61,845 nucleotides of DNA from Chitinophagaceae bacterium (GTDB taxonomy: Bacteria; Bacteroidota; Bacteroidia; Chitinophagales; Chitinophagaceae). The DNA lies in contig JBPPMM010000719.1 of the NCBI GenBank assembly GCA_051306075.1, forward strand, positions 1-61,845, given 5' to 3'. This document shows positions 34,116-44,751 of the stretch, piece by piece. The position numbers were made by a program, and so were the translations under genes. How positions within the stretch are numbered: position 1 is the stretch's first letter; each line of letters opens with the position of its first letter. The notes below the pieces were generated by a model. It saw only the letters and a list, made by a program, of their open reading frames with translations, was not told the origin of the DNA and searched no databases.

Positions 34116-34541
34116 TTAATACCTGTTTTCCGGATTTCTCATGGATATGATGCTATCCACAATATATCTTGAATTTCCCCGCCATGGAATAACCCCATTG
34201 TATTCTTTATAATGCAGATCAAAAATTTTCCCGCTGTTTACCTTCAGCACATCAAAAACTTTTTTGTCTTTAACGGAAAATTCAAATTCATTGGATTCTA
34301 TAGCACCTGCAGTCCTGCTTCGTATCCCTTCCTGAATCAGCTTGCCTTCGTAAGTTTTAAATATCTGGCCTTTACGTACCGCGAAATTGAGGTAACCAGA
34401 TTTTACCCCATCACTTGTATACGGAAAATAAAATTTCCAATATATATATCCCGCGAAAATCAATACCAGAATAATAACAAACGTTCGAAAAACTTTTTTC
34501 ACACCTGATGTCTTTCGCCTCCCAGTTTTTAATTCTTCCAT
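34116..34541 (-). CDS. Conserved Bacteroidota hypothetical protein with an N-terminal membrane anchor
   Basis: KG.IFKTYEGKL, FEFSV, PWRG..Y.VDSI pattern; one TM helix. Confidence 0.7.
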   Translation of the reverse strand: MEELKTGRRKTSGVKKVFRTFVIILVLIFAGYIYWKFYFPYTSDGVKSGYLNFAVRKGQIFKTYEGKLIQEGIRSRTAGAIESNEFEFSVKDKKVFDVLKVNSGKIFDLHYKEYNGVIPWRGNSRYIVDSIISMRNPENRY

Positions 34542-34563: not shown

Positions 34564-34597
34564 TTTGGCTCTTAAATGAATATAAATTATACATTTG
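34564..34597 (+). promoter_or_regulatory. Bacteroidota housekeeping promoter of the arg leader/operon
   Basis: TTTG (34564-67), 22-nt spacer, TACATTTG (34590-97). Confidence 0.7.
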
Positions 34598-34625
34598 TGC
34601 CTCAATTTACAATTAGTTTGTAAGC

Positions 34626-34748
34626 GTGAGTAATATTTTGACACATACCAAGCAAATGGCATTTCATGCACCCATCACCAGTGGCGTATATGCAGTGGGT
34701 TATGACCTGTTTACTTTTTGCCGCCCACGACGCCGCCCTGAGTGCTGA
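34626..34748 (+). CDS. Putative Arg-rich leader (attenuator/arrest) peptide of the arg operon
   Basis: GTG 34626 or in-frame ATG 34656 to TGA 34746-48: (MSNILTHTKQ)MAFHAPITSGVYAVGYDLFTFCRPRRRPEC*; all four Arg codons lie in CGC CCA CGA CGC CGC. Confidence 0.7.
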   Translation: MSNILTHTKQMAFHAPITSGVYAVGYDLFTFCRPRRRPEC

Positions 34749-34780
34749 CAGGACGAACCCTTTACCACGGCCCCTGTCAG
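34745..34780 (+). promoter_or_regulatory. Leader RNA hairpin overlapping the leader stop codon
   Basis: CTGACAGG (34745-52) is the exact complement of CCTGTCAG (34773-80); no U-tract follows. Confidence 0.6.
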
Positions 34781-34841
34781 TGAATCCTTCTCCGGAAAAA
34801 TTATCAGGACTGGTCATCCGACACTATTCAATTATTTAAAC

Positions 34842-35555
34842 GTGGACAATCAAGAAATCATCATAAGGGTAGCTACCCAGGATGATAAAAAATATTCAAC
34901 TATCATTACTGATGAAATGGAGTCCTCTGCCAATGCAAGAGGTACAGGTATTGCCAAAAGAAGCCCTGAGTATGTTGAAATGAAAATAGACGAGGGAAAG
35001 GCTGTTATTGCCGTAACGAAACAAGGCACCTGGGTAGGTTTTTGTTATATAGAAACCTGGAGTCATGGAGAATATGTTGCCAACAGTGGTCTCATTGTTT
35101 CACCTGAATTCAGGAAAAGCGGTGTAGCAAAATCTATCAAGCAAAAAATATTTAATCTTTCAAGACAAAAATATCCCGAAGCGAAAATATTTGGGTTGAC
35201 AACCGGTCTCGCTGTTATGAAAATTAATTCGGACCTGGGTTATGAACCCGTTACCTATTCAGAGCTTACCCAGGATGAGGCTTTTTGGGCTGGTTGCAAA
35301 AGCTGTGTCAATTATGATATACTGATGAGCAAAGAACGAAAAATTTGTATGTGCACGGCTATGCTTTTTGATCCTAAAGACCATTATGAACCCGAACAAA
35401 CCAAAGAATATTTCAAAGAAAATGTAAAAGGTTTTGAGCGATTGCTTCGGTTCAAACAATGGAAACTGCTAAAACCTTTCAGGAAAAAGGAAAAAAATAC
35501 AAATAGTGGAAGCAGCAATCTGAAAGCCTTGCTTTATCATTTCTTCCATTTATAA
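34842..35555 (+). CDS. GNAT acyltransferase, putative N-acyl(succinyl/acetyl)glutamate synthase (ArgA role)
   Basis: VSPEFRKSGVAK acyl-CoA motif; first gene of the arg operon, which has no other ArgA/ArgJ. Confidence 0.75.
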   Translation: MDNQEIIIRVATQDDKKYSTIITDEMESSANARGTGIAKRSPEYVEMKIDEGKAVIAVTKQGTWVGFCYIETWSHGEYVANSGLIVSPEFRKSGVAKSIKQKIFNLSRQKYPEAKIFGLTTGLAVMKINSDLGYEPVTYSELTQDEAFWAGCKSCVNYDILMSKERKICMCTAMLFDPKDHYEPEQTKEYFKENVKGFERLLRFKQWKLLKPFRKKEKNTNSGSSNLKALLYHFFHL

Positions 35556-35574
35556 TATAAGATAAATTAATACG

Positions 35575-36786
35575 ATGACTAAAAAGGTTGTACTTGGTTT
35601 TAGCGGAGGTCTGGATACTTCATATTGTGTAAAATACCTGACAGAAGATAAAGGTTACGAGGTTCATAGCATCATTGTAAATACGGGTGGCTTTACTGAA
35701 GAGGAATTAAAGCAGGTAGAAGCTCATGCATATAAATTGGGAGTTACTTCGCATAAATCAGTTAATGCCATAAAAAGTTATTATGACAGCATTATCAAAT
35801 ACCTGGTTTATGGTAACGTACTTAAAAATAACACTTACCCGTTAAGCGTATCTGCCGAAAGGCTTAGCCAGGCACTGCATATTGCTGACTATGCTGAGGA
35901 ATTAAAAGCTGACATAGTAGCTCATGGCAGCACGGGAGCCGGTAATGACCAGGTGAGATTTGATATGATTTTTCATATTATGATCCCTGGCATTGAGATC
36001 CTGACTCCTATCCGCGACCAGAAGCTTAGCCGCGAAGAAGAAATAGAATACCTGAAAGCAAAAGGTGTTGAAATGAATTTTGAAAAGGCCGCATACTCTA
36101 TTAATAAAGGATTATGGGGCACCAGCGTAGGAGGCCGGGAAACTCTTTCAAGTAAAGGCATTTTACCCGAGGAAGCATGGCCCACCCAAATCACAAAAAC
36201 CGGAACAGAGGAAGTGGTGTTGCATTTCGAAAAAGGTGAACTTAAAAAAGTAAATGACCATTCATTTTCCCATCCTTCACTAGCTATTCAGTATTTACAG
36301 GAATTAGCAGGGCCTTATGGTATAGGAAGAGATATTCATGTTGGTGATACCATTATCGGTATAAAAGGAAGAGTAGGTTTTGAAGCCGCTGCGCCGATGG
36401 TAATTCTTAAATCTCATCATGCCCTGGAAAAACATGTGCTTACAAAGTGGCAACTCAATTGGAAGGACCAACTGGCACAATTTTATGGTAACTGGTTACA
36501 CGAAGGACAAATTCTGGATCCGGTGATGAGAGATATAGAAGCTTTATTAGAAAGCAGCCAGCGAACAGTTACAGGTGATGTGTATGTACAATTATTTCCT
36601 CACCGTTTCCAGGTAACTGGAGTTGACAGTAAATATGACCTCATGAATACACGTTTTGGAAAATACGGGGAAATGAATACAGGCTTTACAGGTAATGATG
36701 TAAGAGGATTCACAAGAATTTTCGGCAATCAAACGATGATGTATCATTTGGTAAAAACAGAAGCTACTACGAAAAACGGCCAGTGA
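35575..36786 (+). CDS. argG: Argininosuccinate synthase
   Basis: FSGGLDTS, HGSTGAGNDQVRF. Confidence 0.96.
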   Translation: MTKKVVLGFSGGLDTSYCVKYLTEDKGYEVHSIIVNTGGFTEEELKQVEAHAYKLGVTSHKSVNAIKSYYDSIIKYLVYGNVLKNNTYPLSVSAERLSQALHIADYAEELKADIVAHGSTGAGNDQVRFDMIFHIMIPGIEILTPIRDQKLSREEEIEYLKAKGVEMNFEKAAYSINKGLWGTSVGGRETLSSKGILPEEAWPTQITKTGTEEVVLHFEKGELKKVNDHSFSHPSLAIQYLQELAGPYGIGRDIHVGDTIIGIKGRVGFEAAAPMVILKSHHALEKHVLTKWQLNWKDQLAQFYGNWLHEGQILDPVMRDIEALLESSQRTVTGDVYVQLFPHRFQVTGVDSKYDLMNTRFGKYGEMNTGFTGNDVRGFTRIFGNQTMMYHLVKTEATTKNGQ

Positions 36787-36849
36787 ACTTAAATAAAGCA
36801 AATACACAAAAGAGTTGACTGGTTTTCGAAATTGAATGAGGATGATATT

Positions 36850-37929
36850 ATGAAAAAGGAAGATTCAATAAAAAATAAAATTATTAGTAAATCTTCTTCT
36901 CCGAAGGAGGGAATTCGTTCGCCAACCATTAAAGCAGGTATAATCGGCGGAGCTGGTTATACCGGGGGAGAACTTATTCGCCTGCTGATCAACCATCCTG
37001 ATACAACTGTTTCCCTGATTCATAGCCGTAGTAATGCTGGTAAATTCGTATCTGAAATTCACCAGGACCTGATTGGTGATACAGTCCTCAAATTTTCCAA
37101 TGAGAATAAGCTATTTGAGGAAGGGAAATTAGATGTACTCTTTCTTTGTTTGGGCCATGGAGAATCCAAAAAATTCCTTACCGAAAATAAAGTACATGAA
37201 AAGATAAAAATTATTGATCTCGCTAATGATTTTAGATTAACGCCGGCCTCAAAATTAAAATCACGCAGTTTCGTTTATGGATTACCGGAGCTTAACCGGG
37301 AAAAAATTAAAACAGCAAACAATATTGCTAATCCCGGATGTTTTGCAACAACCATTCAGTTAGGTTTGCTTCCGCTTGCAAAGGAAGGATTGCTGAATGA
37401 AGTATATACCACTGGTATTACAGGATCTACAGGTGCAGGACAATCGCTTTCCGCCACTTCTCATTTTAGCTGGCGGGCAAATAATATACAGGCTTATAAA
37501 ACACTCACTCATCAGCACCTGGGTGAAATTTACCAATCTCTTAATCAATTGCAGAAATCCCACCAGGGAAGCCCTCTTGAAGAAGGAGGAATAAGCTTTG
37601 TACCCTGGCGTGGCGACTTCACAAGAGGAATTTTTGTGAGTTCAACAGTTCATTGTGATATGAGTCGCGAGGAACTGACTAAATTATATACCGGCTTTTA
37701 TTCCGGTCATCCTTTTACACATGTAAGCAAGGATTCTATTTTTTTAAAACAAGTTGTCAACACCAATAAAGCAATTGTACAATTAGAAAAAGTAGGCAGT
37801 AAGTTAGTGGTTCATACAGCACTTGATAATCTACTAAAAGGCGCATCAGGGCATGCGGTACAAAATATGAACCTGATGTTTGGTTTGGAAGAAACAACAG
37901 GTCTTAAATTGAAATCCCCGGGATTTTAA
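36850..37929 (+). CDS. argC: N-acyl-gamma-glutamyl-phosphate reductase
   Basis: GGAGYTG, YGLPE, ANPGCF, DNLLKGASG; start uncertain. Confidence 0.95.
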   Translation: MKKEDSIKNKIISKSSSPKEGIRSPTIKAGIIGGAGYTGGELIRLLINHPDTTVSLIHSRSNAGKFVSEIHQDLIGDTVLKFSNENKLFEEGKLDVLFLCLGHGESKKFLTENKVHEKIKIIDLANDFRLTPASKLKSRSFVYGLPELNREKIKTANNIANPGCFATTIQLGLLPLAKEGLLNEVYTTGITGSTGAGQSLSATSHFSWRANNIQAYKTLTHQHLGEIYQSLNQLQKSHQGSPLEEGGISFVPWRGDFTRGIFVSSTVHCDMSREELTKLYTGFYSGHPFTHVSKDSIFLKQVVNTNKAIVQLEKVGSKLVVHTALDNLLKGASGHAVQNMNLMFGLEETTGLKLKSPGF

Positions 37930-37931
37930 TA

Positions 37932-39104
37932 ATGAAAAAACTGCTGCACTATAATATTTTAAAAAAAGGCAGCCGGGTAGGATTACTGTGCAATCAAACA
38001 GCCTGGCATATTACTACCAAGGAATATTCTTTTGAATCGTTGATAAGGAAAGCTGATCTCAAAAAAATATTTATTCCCGAACACGGATTGTTTGGAGAAT
38101 TACAGGACCAGGAAAAGCTGGATATCACTTCATCCTATCATTTTTTTTCCAGCCAGGTAGAATGGATTTCTTTATATACAACTAATGAAACCTCCCTGGC
38201 AGCCAATGCCGGTCAATTATCGGGAATTGATGTACTGGTCATCGATCTGCAGGATACCGGCAGCCGCTATTATACATTCATTACCACCGTCTGGCTTTTA
38301 TTAAAATCCAATACCATTCATCATCTTGATATAACAATCATTGTATTAGACAAACCCAACCCGGCCGGCCGGCAGGTAGAAGGAACAAGAATGACCAGGG
38401 AGTATGCTTCCTTTATCGGAATTGAAGGATTGCCACACCGGCACGGGCTTACTATCGGGGAACTATGCCGGTATTTTAAAAATAAACTGGAAGCAGACTG
38501 GGAGCTCATTGTATATCCTATAAAGAAAAAGGATTATTACTTCGTTCCGCCCTCACCAAATATTCCATCGGCCCGGGTTTGTAGTTTATACAGCGGGCAG
38601 TGCCTTTGGGAAGGAACCAATATCAGCGAAGGCCGGGGCACTACCCTGCCATTTGAACTAATCGGGGCCCCATTTTTGGATTGGATATTCCGGGAAAAAT
38701 GGAATGATCCCGTGCATCCTGTTTATAACAAACATGTGTACACCAGGCCATTGATATTTATTCCATATTTTCATAAACATGTAAAGGAAGCCTGCAATGG
38801 ATTACACATCATGTTGAATAATAAAAAAAAATATCATTCGCTTTCTCACAGCATAAAACTATTAAAATACATAAAGGAAAAAACGCCGGAATTTGCATGG
38901 AGAGGTGGAAAGTATGAGGCGCTCAATGATAAAAATGCAATTGAATTGCTGGCAGGAGATCAACTGATACTGGATTATTTTGAAAATAGAAATTCATGGA
39001 AAGAATTGAAATCTAAATTCGGGGAAGAAGAAGCCGCCTGGATAAAAGAAGCCACTCCTTTCCTGATCTATAAACCTTCTTTACAACAATTGAAAATAAA
39101 CTAA
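37932..39104 (+). CDS. DUF1343/NamZ-like exo-beta-N-acetylmuramidase family protein, no signal peptide
   Basis: PEHG, DLQDTGSRYYTF, LDKPNP, RHGLTIGEL, PPSPNIP, SEGRGTTLPFE. Confidence 0.85.
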   Translation: MKKLLHYNILKKGSRVGLLCNQTAWHITTKEYSFESLIRKADLKKIFIPEHGLFGELQDQEKLDITSSYHFFSSQVEWISLYTTNETSLAANAGQLSGIDVLVIDLQDTGSRYYTFITTVWLLLKSNTIHHLDITIIVLDKPNPAGRQVEGTRMTREYASFIGIEGLPHRHGLTIGELCRYFKNKLEADWELIVYPIKKKDYYFVPPSPNIPSARVCSLYSGQCLWEGTNISEGRGTTLPFELIGAPFLDWIFREKWNDPVHPVYNKHVYTRPLIFIPYFHKHVKEACNGLHIMLNNKKKYHSLSHSIKLLKYIKEKTPEFAWRGGKYEALNDKNAIELLAGDQLILDYFENRNSWKELKSKFGEEEAAWIKEATPFLIYKPSLQQLKIN

Positions 39105-40267
39105 TGAATTTATTCGACGTCTATCCGCTCAATGACATCACCATTGTAAAAGCCAAAGGATCTTACGTATGGGATGATAAGGGCGAACAATACCTCGACC
39201 TGTATGGCGGGCACGCAGTTATCAGTATCGGTCATACCCATCCGCATTGGGTAAAACGCATAGAAGAACAATTGGAAAAAATAGCTTTCTATTCCAATTC
39301 CATCAAAATTCCACTGCAACAGCAACTCGCTGAAAAGCTCGGCAAAATTTCCGGAAAAGATTCTTACCAGTTATTCCTTTGCAATTCAGGTGCAGAAGCC
39401 AATGAAAATGCATTGAAGCTGGCTTCATTTCATAATGGGAGAAAAAAAGTTGTTGCGTTCAGTAAGGCATTTCATGGGCGAACCTCGCTGGCAGTATCTG
39501 CTACCGACAATAAAAATTACATTGCTCCGGTAAACGAAACAAACAATGTGATCTTTCTGCCTTTTAATGATGAGGAAGAGTTGGAAAAATGTTTCTCCAA
39601 AAATGGCAAAGAAATTTCCTCTGTCATCATTGAAGGTATACAGGGTGTTGGTGGTATTAATGTAGCGGATGATTCTTTCCTGAAAAAAATACGAAGTCTA
39701 TGTGATGAATATGGAGCTGTCTATATTGCAGACAGCGTTCAATGTGGGTATGGAAGAACGGGTAAATTTTTTAGTCATGATTTTTCCGGAGTAAGTGCAG
39801 ACATATATACCATGGCAAAAGGAATGGGTAATGGCTTTCCGGTGGCTGGTATTATCGTTGCCCCACACATTAAGCCAAAACATTTTCAATTAGGAACTAC
39901 TTTTGGAGGAAATCACCTGGCCTGCGCCGCAGCATTGGCTGTGCTGGAAATAATTGAAGAAGAAAAACTGATGGGTAATGCCGTAATGATCGGTAAATAT
40001 TTAAAAGACGAATTGAATGGAATTCCTGAATTAAATAATATCCGTGGCAAAGGACTGATGATTGGTTTTGATGTTCCCGAAGAGCTGAAAGACCTGAAGA
40101 AAAACTTGCTGTGGAATCAGAAAATATTTACCGGCGAAGCGAAACCTAATGTTATTCGTTTGCTGCCTTCGCTTGCCCTGAAGAAAAGAGATGCGGAAGA
40201 TTTTATTGAAGCGTTAAAAGAAGAGATCAGTGTTTCAAAGGTGAGTGCAGAAAATGTAGTATCATGA
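39104..40267 (+). CDS. argD: Acylornithine aminotransferase
   Basis: NSGAEANE, FHGRT, DSVQCG.GRTG, AKG, TFGGN. Confidence 0.93.
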   Translation: MNLFDVYPLNDITIVKAKGSYVWDDKGEQYLDLYGGHAVISIGHTHPHWVKRIEEQLEKIAFYSNSIKIPLQQQLAEKLGKISGKDSYQLFLCNSGAEANENALKLASFHNGRKKVVAFSKAFHGRTSLAVSATDNKNYIAPVNETNNVIFLPFNDEEELEKCFSKNGKEISSVIIEGIQGVGGINVADDSFLKKIRSLCDEYGAVYIADSVQCGYGRTGKFFSHDFSGVSADIYTMAKGMGNGFPVAGIIVAPHIKPKHFQLGTTFGGNHLACAAALAVLEIIEEEKLMGNAVMIGKYLKDELNGIPELNNIRGKGLMIGFDVPEELKDLKKNLLWNQKIFTGEAKPNVIRLLPSLALKKRDAEDFIEALKEEISVSKVSAENVVS

Positions 40268-40427
40268 AATAGGCTCGCCAATAAACGTGTTAGATAGTGA
40301 GGCAAGAATATTCCGGAAGTTTTTATAACCAGGCCGCAAACCAACAAAACGCTACCCTTATTTGTTCCCTGGTTCATGTACAGAACAAATTCCCGTTAAA
40401 GAAGATGGGAAAAATTTCAAATTCAGT

Positions 40428-41417
40428 ATGAATAATTTCATTTCGGCTCATGATGTAAACAATATGGATGCATTGGTGCAAAAGGCCCTTGCATACAAGG
40501 CCAATCCATTTGCCGATAAATTACTTGGCGCCAATAAGCGAATTGGTTGCTTGTTCCTGAACCCAAGTATGCGTACGCGGTTAAGTACCCAGATAGCAGC
40601 GCAGAATTTAGGAATGGAAGCTATTGTATTCAACGTAGGTAATGAAGGGTGGATGCTTGAATTTGAAGAAGAAGCCATTATGAGCGGCAGCACGGTGGAG
40701 CATGTAAAAGACGCCGCACCCATTTTCGGAAAATATTTTGACATCCTGGCCATCCGCACATTTCCGTCATTAAAAAACAGGGATGATGACTACAGTGAAC
40801 TGTATATTAAACAATTTATCAAATACGCTGGTATTCCGGTAGTAAGCCTTGAAAGTGCTACGCTGCATCCGTTACAGTCATTAACTGATATTATTACTAT
40901 TATTGAAACTGCAAAAACAAATCTGATCGGAACCACAAATGCTAATCCTAAACCCCGCATTGTTTTAACCTGGGCGCCCCATGTTAAACCCCTACCCCAG
41001 TGCGTTGCTAATAGTTTTTCTCAATGGATCAATGCGTGGGGTAAAGCAGATTTTGTTATCACGCATCCTGAAGATTATGAGCTGAGCGAAGAATTTACAA
41101 AAGGAGCTACCATTACTCACAACCAGGATGAAGCATTAGAAGGTGCCGATTTTGTTTATGTAAAGAATTGGAGTACTTATAATGATTACGGCAGAATTTA
41201 TTGCAACGATCCTTCGTGGATGCTCACCAATCAAAAATTAAAATTGACCAATAATGCAAAGGTGATGCATTGCCTGCCTGTAAGAAGAAATGTAGAACTA
41301 AGTGATGAAATACTGGACGGCCCAAACAGCATTGTAACGTTGGAAGCATCAAACCGGGTTTGGGCTGCCCAGGCTGTATTGAGTGAAATATTAGGCCCCC
41401 AACGAAGACCTTATTAA
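40428..41417 (+). CDS. argF: N-succinyl/N-acetylornithine carbamoyltransferase (ArgF')
   Basis: FLNPSMRT, HPLQ, WAPH.KPLP..VANS, HCLPVRRN; ATG 40428. Confidence 0.92.
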   Translation: MNNFISAHDVNNMDALVQKALAYKANPFADKLLGANKRIGCLFLNPSMRTRLSTQIAAQNLGMEAIVFNVGNEGWMLEFEEEAIMSGSTVEHVKDAAPIFGKYFDILAIRTFPSLKNRDDDYSELYIKQFIKYAGIPVVSLESATLHPLQSLTDIITIIETAKTNLIGTTNANPKPRIVLTWAPHVKPLPQCVANSFSQWINAWGKADFVITHPEDYELSEEFTKGATITHNQDEALEGADFVYVKNWSTYNDYGRIYCNDPSWMLTNQKLKLTNNAKVMHCLPVRRNVELSDEILDGPNSIVTLEASNRVWAAQAVLSEILGPQRRPY

Positions 41418-41430
41418 AAACAAGAAATCT

Positions 41431-42279
41431 GTGTTAGAGAAAATTGCTGAAACAATTAAAATGCTTCAAAGCCCCCCTTCAGGGGATGGGGGAAAACCTT
41501 CTCTTTTCATAATAAAGATCGGTGGAAATATTATTGATGATGCAACCAAACTTTCTTTATTCCTTAAAGATTTTGCATCCATCGGCAAAAATAAAATTCT
41601 GGTTCATGGCGGTGGAAAATTAGCTACCCGCTTAGCTGAGCAACTGGGAGTAACACAACAGTTAATTGACGGCAGAAGAATAACGGATAAAGAAACACTT
41701 AAAATTGTAACCATGGTGTATGCCGGTTATATCAATAAAAACATAGTGGCTTCTCTGCAGGCTAACCATTGTAATGCCATGGGACTCTGCGGAGCCGACG
41801 GGGATGTTATTCTTGCTCATAAGCGTAATCACCCGATATTGGATTATGGCTTTGCCGGTGATGTGGATGCTATTAATACAGGGCTTATAAAAAACTTACT
41901 TGAGCAAAATATTTCTTTAGTATTTGCGCCGATCACCCATGATCAGAAAGGTCAATTATTAAATACCAATGCGGATACAATTGCACAAGAGCTTGCAAAA
42001 GGCCTGAGCCATGAATTTGATGTGACATTGGTTTATTCTTTTGATAAAGCCGGCGTTTTACTGGATGCCAATGACGACAGCACAGTAATACACGAGATAA
42101 ATGCTTCCCGCTACAAAGAATTAAAAACGAAAAAAAAGATATTCGCCGGAATGATTCCTAAATTAGATAATGCTTTTGAGGCTTTAAAAAGCGGCGTAAA
42201 AAAAGTTATTATAGGCAAAGCGGAAAACCTGGCAGATCTTATATCAGGCAAATCAGGAACAACCATTATCAATGAATAA
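41431..42279 (+). CDS. argB: Acylglutamate kinase
   Basis: IKIGG, VHGGG, GRRITD, NTNAD, GMIPK; start may be ATG 41461. Confidence 0.94.
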   Translation: MLEKIAETIKMLQSPPSGDGGKPSLFIIKIGGNIIDDATKLSLFLKDFASIGKNKILVHGGGKLATRLAEQLGVTQQLIDGRRITDKETLKIVTMVYAGYINKNIVASLQANHCNAMGLCGADGDVILAHKRNHPILDYGFAGDVDAINTGLIKNLLEQNISLVFAPITHDQKGQLLNTNADTIAQELAKGLSHEFDVTLVYSFDKAGVLLDANDDSTVIHEINASRYKELKTKKKIFAGMIPKLDNAFEALKSGVKKVIIGKAENLADLISGKSGTTIINE

Positions 42280-43342
42280 TAAACTAAATACTTTGTATGA
42301 AGAAGCCATCGGCTTATTAAAAGAGCTGATCGCCACCCCCTCTTTCAGTAAAGAAGAAGATGAAACGGCCGGCATACTTTGCCGTTTCATAGGTGAAAAA
42401 GGCATTCAACATAGCCGGGTAGGCAATAACGTTTATGCATTGAACAAATACTATGACGTAAACAAACCCAGTATCCTGCTCAATTCCCATCATGATACCG
42501 TGAAACCAAACAAGGGTTATACATTTGATCCCTTCAGTCCATTCGAAAAAGACGGAAAATTATTTGGACTGGGCAGTAATGATGCCGGTGGTTGCCTGGT
42601 TTCACTGCTGGCCAGCTTTCTCTATTATTATGACCGTGAAGATCTCGATCATAATGTTGTATTTGCAGCCAGCGCAGAAGAGGAGATCAGCGGAGTTAAT
42701 GGTATTGAGTTGGTACTTCCCTATCTTGGCAAACTGGATTATGGAATTGTAGGCGAACCTACAAAATTAGAAATGGCCGTGGCTGAGCGGGGATTGATGG
42801 TGATAGATTGTACTGCCGAAGGCCGTTCCGGGCATGCAGCCAGAAACGAAGGAGAAAACGCACTATACAAAGCTTTGGATGATATTAACTGGCTACGCAA
42901 TTATAAATTTGAAAAGGTAAGTCCCCTGCTTGGAGAATCAAGACTGACCGCAACGGTAATCAATACAGAAAACCAGCAGCACAACGTTGTCCCATCGCAA
43001 TGCAAATTTGTTATTGATGTGCGGGTAAACGAATTATATAGCTTTGAAGAGATTCTCGATGCATTAAAAGCTAATATGAAAAGTAAATTTAAGCCGCGTA
43101 CTACCCGGATGAAATCCACCTCTATCGCTCTGGATCATCCGCTGGTAAAAGCAGGTGTAAATTTAGGCAGGGGTTACTATGGCTCCCCTACTACTTCGGA
43201 TAAAGCATTAATGCCGTTTGCAACTTTAAAAATGGGCCCCGGCGACAGTGCACGCAGCCATACTGCGGATGAATACATTTACCTGGAGGAAATAAAAGAA
43301 GGGATCAACACATATATTAAGCTTGTAGATCAGTTGGTTTAA
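42272..43342 (+). CDS. argE: M20 deacylase of the arg pathway (ArgE-like)
   Basis: NSHHDTV, GLGSNDAG, EEE, GEPT, GHAA, SHTADE; in the arg operon. Confidence 0.85.
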   Translation: MNNKLNTLYEEAIGLLKELIATPSFSKEEDETAGILCRFIGEKGIQHSRVGNNVYALNKYYDVNKPSILLNSHHDTVKPNKGYTFDPFSPFEKDGKLFGLGSNDAGGCLVSLLASFLYYYDREDLDHNVVFAASAEEEISGVNGIELVLPYLGKLDYGIVGEPTKLEMAVAERGLMVIDCTAEGRSGHAARNEGENALYKALDDINWLRNYKFEKVSPLLGESRLTATVINTENQQHNVVPSQCKFVIDVRVNELYSFEEILDALKANMKSKFKPRTTRMKSTSIALDHPLVKAGVNLGRGYYGSPTTSDKALMPFATLKMGPGDSARSHTADEYIYLEEIKEGINTYIKLVDQLV

Positions 43343-43419
43343 GAATGAAAATTTCCCGGCTATAATAGTTTGACAGAATGTTTACAAAGTATACCAACTA
43401 CCGAAAAATAAAATAACAG

Positions 43420-44751
43420 ATGAAATTGTGGCAAAAAGATAAATCCTCATTAAAAGAAGTAGAAACATTCACTGTAGGTAACGACAGGGAAATGGATATG
43501 TATTTAGCCCCTTTTGATATTTTGGGTTCACTGGCTCATATTGAAATGCTGGCCTCGGTTGGATTATTGACCAAAGAAGAACTTGCGCAACTTCAAACAG
43601 AGTTAAAAAAAATTTACGAGGTGATACAGAAGGGTGAATTTAAACTACAGGATGATGTAGAAGATATTCATTCGCAAATAGAGATGTTGCTCACAAAAAG
43701 TTTGGGTGACGTTGGCAAGAAAATACATGCCGCACGCAGCCGCAACGACCAGGTGCTGGTAGATATAAAATTGTATTTACGATCTGAACTGGAAAATCTC
43801 GTTCAAACCATATTACCCCTTTTCGACTTACTCCAGGCTCAAAGTGAAAAGTATAAAACGGATCTGCTGCCAGGCTATACACATTTACAATTAGCTATGC
43901 CTTCCTCGTTTGGCTTGTGGTTTGGTGCCTATGCAGAAAGTTTTATAGATGATATGGTGACAATAAAAGCGGCTTACGATGTGGTTAATAAAAATCCCCT
44001 GGGTTCTGCTGCTGGTTATGGCTCATCATTCCCTATCAACAGAACTTTAACAACAAAACTTTTAGGATTTGCTGACCTTAATTACAATGTAGTGTATGCG
44101 CAAATGGGACGCGGTAAAGCAGAACGGATAACAGCGACAGCCCTGGCAAATGTAGCAGATACACTGAGCAAACTATCTATGGATGCCACTTTGTTCTTAA
44201 ACCAGAATTTTAGTTTCATCAGTTTCCCCGGCGAACTGACAACGGGAAGCAGCATTATGCCGCACAAAAAAAATCCTGATGTTTTTGAGTTGATACGCAG
44301 TCATTGCAACCGCATCAAAGCCTTACCCAATGAATTAACATTGATGACCACCAATCTGCCATCCGGCTATCATCGCGATCTGCAATTATTGAAGGAACAT
44401 TTATTTCCTGCTTTTAAAACATTAAAGGATTGCATTGAAATGACCGGATTAATGATTTCCCATATTGAAGTAAAGAAGGATATTCTGAATGATGAAAAAT
44501 ACAAGTACCTGTATAGCGTAGAGGAAGTAAACAAACTGGTAAATAATGGAGTGCCTTTCAGGGATGCTTATAAAAAAATCGGGACCGACATTGAGTCCGG
44601 GCATTTCAATTATGACACAAAAATTAATCATAACCACGAAGGCAGTATCGGGAACCTATGTACAATAGAAATAAAGGACATGATGCAAAAAGTGCTGGAT
44701 TCGTTTCCCTTTACATCTGTCCGCACGGCCATTGACAAGTTAACCCGATGA
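43420..44751 (+). CDS. argH: Argininosuccinate lyase
   Basis: EDIH, RSRNDQ, PGYTHLQ, GSSIMPHKKNP. Confidence 0.96.
   Translation: MKLWQKDKSSLKEVETFTVGNDREMDMYLAPFDILGSLAHIEMLASVGLLTKEELAQLQTELKKIYEVIQKGEFKLQDDVEDIHSQIEMLLTKSLGDVGKKIHAARSRNDQVLVDIKLYLRSELENLVQTILPLFDLLQAQSEKYKTDLLPGYTHLQLAMPSSFGLWFGAYAESFIDDMVTIKAAYDVVNKNPLGSAAGYGSSFPINRTLTTKLLGFADLNYNVVYAQMGRGKAERITATALANVADTLSKLSMDATLFLNQNFSFISFPGELTTGSSIMPHKKNPDVFELIRSHCNRIKALPNELTLMTTNLPSGYHRDLQLLKEHLFPAFKTLKDCIEMTGLMISHIEVKKDILNDEKYKYLYSVEEVNKLVNNGVPFRDAYKKIGTDIESGHFNYDTKINHNHEGSIGNLCTIEIKDMMQKVLDSFPFTSVRTAIDKLTR

What the first reader, a model, noticed from the sequence alone, without database searches (positions are those of the whole stretch)
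34564..34841. Unannotated Arg-rich leader peptide in front of the arginine operon: candidate ribosome-dependent arginine attenuator
Seen: a consensus promoter (TTTG-N22-TACATTTG) is followed by a 30-40 codon ORF (34626 or 34656 to 34748), then 93 nt, then the 9-gene arg operon. The peptide ends LFTFCRPRRRPEC*. Its only Arg residues are four CGN codons packed into five positions just before the stop, forming a GC-rich patch in AT-rich DNA. No argR is in the window. Established: his/trp/leu/thr attenuators use clustered cognate codons in exactly this way, while bacterial arg genes are classically controlled by ArgR. Arrest peptides (TnaC, SpeFL, fungal AAP) act at C-terminal motifs next to the stop. 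Inference: this is an arginine-sensing leader that works through Arg-tRNA shortage or a nascent-peptide arrest at RRRPEC*. I do not know of such a system described for Bacteroidota arg operons.
Basis: partly seen in the sequence, partly recalled or inferred. Interest (0 to 1): 0.88.

Follow-up and report, generated by a model that had tools for sequence, protein, structure and literature searches.

The report
Arginine-sensing leader peptide replacing ArgR
A tiny, unannotated but strongly conserved gene ending in arginine codons, followed by a conserved RNA hairpin, sits in front of the arginine-synthesis genes of a bacterial family in which no arginine repressor was found, and it likely lets a stalling ribosome switch those genes on when arginine runs short, a control not found described for bacterial arginine synthesis.

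Summary
The 40-codon ORF (GTG 34626, stop 34746-48) is a real leader. An Arg-ending ORF precedes the GNAT-argG operon in 82 of 88 family loci (shuffles 6.6; own-genome control 111 of 1459). The peptide is under purifying selection (dN/dS about 0.05). CGA, the rarest Arg codon (8% genome-wide), makes up 125 of 230 tail Arg codons. ArgR was found in 0 of 151 family genomes. New here: a covarying hairpin starts exactly at the stop codon, its loop likely pairs with a downstream element, the spacer is C-rich, and there is no intrinsic terminator, although the genome's trp leader has one. Best model (inferred, no expression data): Arg-tRNA shortage stalls the ribosome at CGA-CGY, the hairpin forms and blocks Rho; a ribosome reaching the stop melts it. 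Rivals: a translational or RNA-decay output, or an Arg-binding arrest peptide. No Rfam, Pfam, NCBIfam or PDB match; no paper found. This scan noted Arg leaders before argG earlier on other DNA, including other Bacteroidota. New variant of a known kind.

The parts
34564..34567 (+). -33 element (TTTG) of a Bacteroidota-type primary promoter
   Evidence: consensus TTTG/TANNTTTG in PMC6847099 (passages); a TTTG 15-25 nt before the -7 box in 19 of the 46 family leaders that have the box
34590..34597 (+). -7 element TACATTTG; predicted transcription start about 34602
   Evidence: fits TAHHTTTG with T at -12 (PMC6847099); TAnnTTTG-type box upstream of 46 of 84 family leaders. Start site is predicted, not mapped
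34626..34748 (+). Leader ORF, 40 aa, GTG start with A at -3, UGA stop
   Evidence: GTG/ATG swap, dN/dS about 0.05 in this frame versus over 3 in the other two frames
34722..34739 (+). Control codons R33-P34-R35-R36-R37-P38 (CGC CCA CGA CGC CGC CCT)
   Evidence: codon 35 is CGA in 69 of 72 orthologues and codon 38 CCT in 67 of 72; a CGA lies in the last 7 codons of 83 of 84 family leaders
34745..34780 (+). Hairpin H1 starting at the stop codon: 8-bp lower stem (34745-34752 with 34773-34780), ACGA bulge, 3-bp upper stem (one A-C mismatch in this genome), 9-nt loop 34760-34768
   Evidence: lower stem 100% paired in 43 loci, C-G to U-A swap in 13 of 43; upper stem 95% paired with two covarying pairs
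34781..34793 (+). Invariant UGRA after H1, then a pyrimidine/CC tract at fixed spacing (possible polymerase pause site or Rho-loading sequence)
   Evidence: UGRA in 110 of 110, pyrimidine at +11 in 110 of 110; function inferred
34807..34819 (+). H2 (GGA-loop-UCC) whose loop is predicted to pair with the H1 loop (ACCA 34764-34767 with UGGU 34811-34814): kissing loop or pseudoknot
   Evidence: 5 of 6 pairs change on both sides, 75% of cells paired; cognate duplex -5.9 versus swapped -4.7 kcal/mol over 47 loop types, but -3.7 versus -4.1 for this window
34842..35555 (+). GNAT acetyltransferase, first gene of the operon (likely N-acetylglutamate synthase, inferred from context)
   Evidence: PF00583; NF005840 below cut-off
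35575..44751 (+). argG, argC, namZ-like, argD, argF-type, argB, argE, argH: the regulated operon

Best explanation
This is a conserved 40-codon leader peptide with a hairpin starting at its stop codon, which likely acts as a ribosome-driven arginine attenuator of the GNAT-argG operon in place of ArgR, probably through Rho rather than an intrinsic terminator. Shown: the ORF, its selection at peptide and codon level, the hairpin H1 and its position, the lack of a U-tract terminator, no ArgR hit in the family, and a rho gene in the genome. Inferred steps: (1) when charged tRNA-Arg(ACG) is short, the ribosome stalls at CGA-CGY, helped by the conserved nascent peptide (His7, His14, aromatic residues 22-31) in the exit tunnel; (2) that stall leaves H1 just outside the ribosome footprint, so H1 and the loop-loop contact fold and hide the C-rich spacer; transcription runs on (ON); (3) with arginine plentiful the ribosome reaches the UGA stop, melts the 5' strand of H1, exposes about 80 C-rich nucleotides, and Rho terminates before the GNAT gene (OFF). 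H1 with its fixed UGRA-N-YCC tail may also be the pause hairpin that couples polymerase and ribosome.
For: Arg-specific conservation 82 of 88; 75 of 75 closest named loci with enough upstream DNA carry both peptide and H1. Codons read by the single ACG-anticodon tRNA make up 210 of 230 tail Arg codons versus 36% genome-wide; CGA 54% versus 8%. Arg is not enriched in the peptide body (50 of 2452 residues). The first CGA lies 21 residues after His14 in 45 of 58 class A1 peptides and usually 19-21 in class B (10 of 14), while His-to-stop is mostly 27 in A1 and 24-25 in B. Folding with a ribosome footprint: H1 holds about 8-9 pairs with the A site at codon -6 or -4, 2.3 at -2, and drops out at the stop (78 loci). 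Spacer C/G 1.51 and YC density 0.17 versus 1.07 and 0.088 in controls. Terminator-like site in 2 of 105 spacers, while the same test detects the genome's trp terminator. rho present. ArgR 0 of 151; two genomes with argR directly before GNAT-argG have no leader. 19 of 42 H1-bearing loci keep Arg codons and H1 but have a diverged peptide body, scattered on a weakly supported tree, so codons plus RNA look like the core switch.
Against: No RNA, Ribo-seq or reporter data. No conserved alternative helix appears when H1 is melted, so the OFF state is argued from absence of a terminator and from C-richness; this window's spacer skew is only at the 87th percentile. The spacer is not more stable than shuffles (z 0.53) and the loop-loop pairing is only 4 bp here and weaker than swapped loops. 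H1 could refold once the ribosome leaves. Classes B and C are less C-rich (C/G 1.38, 1.26). Two relatives keep the peptide but only one Arg (L020, L034), and four (L002, L158, L159, L162) carry a 7-codon insertion that breaks the His-to-CGA register. Family f25 uses CGG (78 of 87), not CGA. Several ArgR-less groups have no leader (g158 0 of 6; f6, f3, f33 0 of 2 each), and G254 has a leader plus a borderline ArgR hit. Genomes are kin, so counts overstate independence.
Confidence: 0.52

Rival explanations
1. Same hungry-codon stall, but the output is translation initiation of the GNAT gene or mRNA stability, not Rho termination: H1 and its loop contact would keep the initiation region open or protect the RNA from a nuclease.
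For: No terminator; H2 ends 22 nt before the GNAT start; Bacteroidota initiation is tuned by structure (PMC6847099, passages); in Salmonella orf34/speFL, pausing at Arg codons yields an RNase G-resistant fold (PMC6386406, abstract).
Against: Predicted openness of the initiation region does not change between ribosome positions (0.65 and about 0.49 in all states); control of one gene's translation would need polarity to govern nine genes.
Confidence: 0.2
2. The peptide is a metabolite-binding arrest peptide: free arginine (or a pathway intermediate) would arrest the ribosome at or near the UGA stop and hold H1 melted (OFF), as fungal AAP (recalled), TnaC and SpeFL arrest at their stops.
For: dN/dS about 0.05 over codons 2-32, far more than a codon counter needs; two invariant His plus an aromatic-rich proximal part resemble the layout of SpeFL (His sensor, Phe effector; bioRxiv 10.1101/604074, passages); stop is UGA in 74 of 86 versus 22% genome-wide; single-Arg variants keep the peptide; it would explain how H1 stays melted.
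Against: Synonymous constraint on CGA; the two last residues and the tail length vary; 19 of 42 H1 loci lose the peptide body; no sequence match to SpeFL or any arrest peptide; UGA is also part of the H1 stem.
Confidence: 0.17
3. H1-H2 is a ligand- or protein-binding RNA (riboswitch-like) that works alongside or apart from leader translation.
For: Seven of eight lower-stem pairs, UGRA and much of the ACGA bulge are invariant beyond what pairing needs; tertiary contact.
Against: It never occurs away from this leader (one hit per genome in 45 of 150; only family f1 in 150 phylum genomes); begins exactly at the stop; classes B, C and other families lack it yet keep Arg leaders; no Rfam match.
Confidence: 0.06
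4. The peptide acts in trans as a small protein, or the element is not arginine-responsive.
For: Strong peptide conservation in class A1.
Against: Arg cluster and CGA persist where the rest of the peptide diverges; fixed 90-140 nt position; a duplicated GNAT in G051 has a leader before each copy; three paralogous GNATs without argG lack leaders; no confident fold (pLDDT 57).
Confidence: 0.05

Closest known systems
Classical leader-peptide transcription attenuators (trpL, hisL, leuL, thrL; recalled), including Bacteroid-trp RF01692 (table row in PMC2864571) and the ilvE and hisG leaders of Flavobacterium psychrophilum (PMC9723704 supplement rows)
   Same: Short ORF with clustered cognate codons between promoter and biosynthetic operon; RNA structure placed at the ribosome footprint edge; the same genome has a Trp-Trp-Trp leader with terminator before trpE.
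   Different: Arginine; no intrinsic terminator or antiterminator pair; longer peptide under strong amino-acid selection; hairpin begins at the stop codon with a predicted loop-loop contact.
SpeFL/orf34 of enterobacterial speF (10.1101/604074 passages; PMC6386406 abstract)
   Same: Conserved 30-40 aa leader, rare Arg codons, hairpin at the ORF end unwound by the ribosome, Rho involvement, His and Phe residues conserved.
   Different: No sequence match; lacks the HIRRXXH motif; Arg codons are C-terminal; controls arginine synthesis, not ornithine decarboxylase.
rbfL of Staphylococcus aureus (PMC13009471, passages)
   Same: Leader peptide shown to sense arginine through slow Arg codons.
   Different: 8 aa, AGA/AGG codons, overlaps the downstream ribosome-binding site and represses a biofilm regulator on starvation; opposite sign.
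Fungal arginine attenuator peptide (AAP) and TnaC (recalled; TnaC also named)
   Same: Conserved nascent peptide upstream of an amino-acid pathway gene.
   Different: No detected homology; here control codons and an RNA switch are conserved too; arrest by free arginine untested.

Membership tests
Classical leader-peptide transcription attenuator | Translated short ORF between promoter and operon | tested here: met
   Promoter box, start-codon swap and dN/dS about 0.05; translation inferred from selection, not measured
Classical leader-peptide transcription attenuator | Clustered codons for the pathway's amino acid, conserved | tested here: met
   82 of 88, Arg-specific
Classical leader-peptide transcription attenuator | Intrinsic terminator (hairpin plus U tract) before the first gene | tested here: not met
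   0 found in the window; 2 of 105 class A spacers, trp control positive
Classical leader-peptide transcription attenuator | Mutually exclusive RNA structures set by ribosome position | tested here: inconclusive
   H1 present or absent by footprint, but no conserved alternative helix
Rho-dependent leader-peptide attenuator (tnaC/speFL type) | C-rich, G-poor Rho-loading stretch whose access depends on the ribosome; rho present | tested here: inconclusive
   C/G 1.51, YC twice control; rho over cut-off; no functional test
Rho-dependent leader-peptide attenuator (tnaC/speFL type) | Premature 3' ends lost on Rho inhibition | not testable with these tools
   No RNA holder listed
SpeFL family | Sequence homology and HIRRXXH sensor motif | tested here: not met
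   No Pfam, NCBIfam or PDB hit; motif absent from alignment A2
Metabolite-sensing arrest peptides (TnaC, SpeFL, AAP) | Peptide sequence conserved at amino-acid level | tested here: met
   Class A1 dN/dS about 0.05; not so in 19 class A2 loci
Metabolite-sensing arrest peptides (TnaC, SpeFL, AAP) | Ligand-dependent arrest at a defined codon | not testable with these tools
   Needs toeprinting or cryo-EM
Known riboswitch or Rfam leader family | Covariance-model match | tested here: not met
   None at gathering score; three chance snoRNA hits at E 2.8-7

The most novel reading that the evidence does not exclude
A family-wide replacement of ArgR by a two-part ribosome sensor: a conserved 40-residue nascent peptide that makes the ribosome arrest in response to arginine supply (a bacterial counterpart of the fungal arginine attenuator peptide, or a peptide-assisted stall at a hungry CGA codon), wired to a stop-codon-anchored kissing-loop RNA that gates Rho without any intrinsic terminator.
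Probability: 0.33. Interest if true: 0.84.

Novelty: new variant of a known kind. Interest (0 to 1): 0.66.

Why it matters
Bacterial arginine synthesis is the textbook case of repressor (ArgR) control rather than attenuation (recalled). Large non-gut Bacteroidota lineages have no detectable ArgR, and how they regulate the pathway was open; this gives a concrete, mutable answer testable in cultured Terrimonas species or by reporter in Flavobacterium johnsoniae. The class found here adds a candidate new arrest-peptide family for ribosome structural work and a terminator-less, pseudoknot-type attenuator architecture. The family also supplies natural variants (peptide kept or lost, one to four Arg codons, hairpin kept or replaced) that separate the parts.

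Tried and rejected
Sigma-70 promoter/terminator scan: no sense-strand site, expected for this phylum. Rfam, Pfam, NCBIfam, PDB sequence and ESM Atlas searches with the leader: no usable hit. AlphaFold model of the peptide: low confidence (pLDDT 56.8), not used. Sequencing runs: no RNA holder listed; no reads laid. Stop-codon readthrough or frameshift into GNAT: rejected, stop-to-start distance is not a constant frame (88-123 nt), although it is in frame in this window. ATG 34656 as start: rejected. H1 3' strand pairing with the GNAT start: no covariation and no change in predicted openness. Extra copies of peptide or RNA elsewhere: none above noise; the two RNA hits not adjacent to the GNAT hit are G017, shown to be at a contig break, and G063, whose GNAT hit starts at its contig edge. 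Arg leader before carA: not seen. hisG not found in this incomplete assembly. Pause consensus: G at -10/-11 and pyrimidine at -1 fit, G at +1 only 36 of 110, so left open. Trade-off between peptide conservation and Arg number: none (3.3 versus 2.8). The tree is the quick version with 5 of 81 branches well supported, so no order of events is claimed. Literature searches that found no description of an arginine-biosynthesis leader peptide in Bacteroidota or other bacteria: (listings only, plus passages of PMC8632094, and a supplement search of PMC9723704). Most subscription papers are outside the library; Russian-language attenuation surveys and later motif-discovery supplements (recalled) were not seen and could list this leader.

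Full report
Observation. Named relatives place the organism in Chitinophagaceae near Terrimonas.

Conservation. The GNAT gene was found in 123 of 151 family genomes. I fetched 90 loci (30 best, 60 picked down the ranking) and dropped two (L018 N gap, L030 contig end). 82 of the remaining 88 have an ORF with two or more Arg in its last six codons ending 50-160 nt before GNAT; one negative (L010) lacks upstream DNA. Shuffles give 6.55 on average, 1459 control regions of the own genome give 111, and no other amino acid exceeds 16. A further 18 family loci, read with a looser test, gave 14 positives and 4 negatives. Among the 80 closest named records, all 75 with enough upstream DNA carry the same peptide and hairpin. 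Profile searches find peptide and RNA once per genome, at this operon. These genomes are kin, so the counts are not independent events.

The ORF is a peptide under selection. In 72 unique 40-codon orthologues the start alternates ATG/GTG, 16 positions are invariant in residue, nearly all while varying in codon, and dN/dS is 0.052 against 3.4 and 5.1 in the other frames. That set was chosen by a peptide motif; repeating on 64 sequences chosen only by GNAT rank and length gave 0.054, and 0.052 without the first ten codons. The window's class (A1) aligns with class B (ending RRPRI) through His7, His14 and Arg-Pro. Class C (ending VRR) is different in sequence. In 19 of 42 hairpin-bearing loci the peptide body has diverged while Arg codons and hairpin persist.

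Codon choice. CGA is the rarest Arg codon in the genome (8.2%), and the genome has one ACG-anticodon tRNA gene and no UCG one among those assembled. CGA is 125 of 230 Arg codons in leader tails, CGA+CGT+CGC 210; codon 35 is CGA in 69 of 72. That CGA is decoded slowly through inosine wobble and that attenuators favour starvation-sensitive isoacceptors is recalled knowledge; PMC7829197 (passages) reports CGA-CGA and CGA-CCG stalling for yeast only. Part of the constraint could be RNA-level.

A hairpin (H1) begins at the base before the UGA stop. Its 8-bp stem is paired in all 43 aligned loci with one compensatory swap in 13; the upper stem covaries; the loop is predicted to pair with a downstream element (5 of 6 pairs change on both sides; 75% paired, with about ten rows misaligned there). 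Cognate loop-target duplexes average -5.9 against -4.7 kcal/mol for swapped loops, though this window's own contact is weak. UGRA and a pyrimidine/CC tract follow at fixed spacing. The whole spacer folds no better than shuffles. The RNA model hits 45 of 150 family genomes and no other family in 150 phylum genomes. Rfam has no match.

No terminator, no ArgR. A terminator-like site was found in 2 of 105 class A spacers, while the same test detects the classical trp attenuator of this genome. The spacer is C-rich (C/G 1.51, YC density twice control; this window at the 87th percentile) and rho is present. ArgR was found in 0 of 151 family genomes but in 87 of 201 phylum genomes, mostly in families lacking this GNAT. 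Outside the family, Arg leaders of other sequence precede GNAT-argG in f25 (19 of 19), f12 (5 of 5), f2 (3 of 3) and f5 outside genus g158 (5 of 5), but not in g158 (0 of 6), several small families, two genomes with argR adjacent, or three paralogous GNATs without argG. G254 has a leader and a borderline ArgR hit. The anti-correlation is therefore partial.

Mechanism. With a ribosome footprint imposed, H1 survives when the A site is at the Arg codons (-6, -4) and is lost at -2 or the stop. That is attenuator geometry with H1 as the starvation (ON) structure. No conserved alternative helix or change in start-site openness appears in the melted state, so the OFF step is most simply Rho loading on the exposed C-rich spacer (inferred). 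The first CGA keeps a fairly fixed distance from His14 across classes, suggesting that the nascent peptide assists the stall; a 7-codon insertion in four loci and single-Arg variants in two complicate this. I put ribosome-dependent arginine sensing at about 0.89 overall: stall plus Rho 0.52, stall plus translation or decay 0.20, arrest by free metabolite at the stop 0.17. No expression data could be had.

Comparison. It works like a leader-peptide attenuator but fails the classical family's terminator test. It resembles SpeFL/orf34 in layout (10.1101/604074, passages; PMC6386406, abstract) without sequence match. rbfL of S. aureus is a proven Arg-codon sensor of opposite sign on a non-biosynthetic gene (PMC13009471, passages). 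Bacteroidota trp, his and ilv leaders are on record (PMC2864571 table row; PMC9723704 passages and supplement rows), with no arginine entry in the file that lists them. Seven searches found no description of this system; subscription papers and unseen supplements could hold one. This scan's earlier notes report Arg leaders before argG in other Bacteroidota-related genomes (one with a classical terminator), a sulfate-reducer relative and archaea; they are unchecked AI notes, agree with my reading, and no look-alike of this stretch was indexed.

Verdict. Real, conserved and probably regulatory; a new variant of a known kind. Its distinctive features are the conserved long peptide, the CGA constraint and the terminator-less hairpin anchored on the stop codon. 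Interest 0.66.

Noticed in passing
L108, L116, L117, L120, L125 (family f5): All five carry two tandem Arg-ending short ORFs before GNAT-argG (stops about 210 and 70 nt upstream) and a shared sequence after the second; a possible double arginine sensor.
   Followed up: partly
19 loci of family f25 (for example L105, L113, L127): A different 21-23 aa leader, typically ending RRIPRRR, using CGG in 78 of 87 Arg codons; by eye its Arg codons and stop can pair with a downstream C-rich stretch; spacer C/G 2.17.
   Followed up: partly
L056, L275, L277 and other class C loci: Class C leaders (41-44 aa, ending VRR) show a short stem starting at the stop codon whose loop could pair downstream, a similar layout with unrelated sequence; seen by eye only.
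   Followed up: no
G000:C660, upstream of trpE (L285): Classical trp attenuator: 19-aa leader with three Trp codons and a U-tract terminator.
   Followed up: yes
window 37932-39104: A namZ-like exo-beta-N-acetylmuramidase gene (PF07075, PF20732) sits inside the arg operon between argC and argD.
   Followed up: no
L265 (G051:C23): Tandemly duplicated GNAT gene, each copy with its own Arg leader.
   Followed up: partly
L002, L158, L159, L162: A 7-codon in-frame insertion in the leader between the first RP and the Arg run.
   Followed up: partly
L100, L103, L109-L111, L114 (genus g158): GNAT-argG with neither an Arg leader nor an ArgR hit: regulation there is unexplained.
   Followed up: no
L161, L226: Records titled Citrobacter carry a Chitinophagaceae-type GNAT (79-84% identity) and leader, so the titles look mislabelled.
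   Followed up: no
window 34116-34541 (- strand): Divergent 141-aa gene with a predicted hydrophobic stretch and no family match.
   Followed up: no
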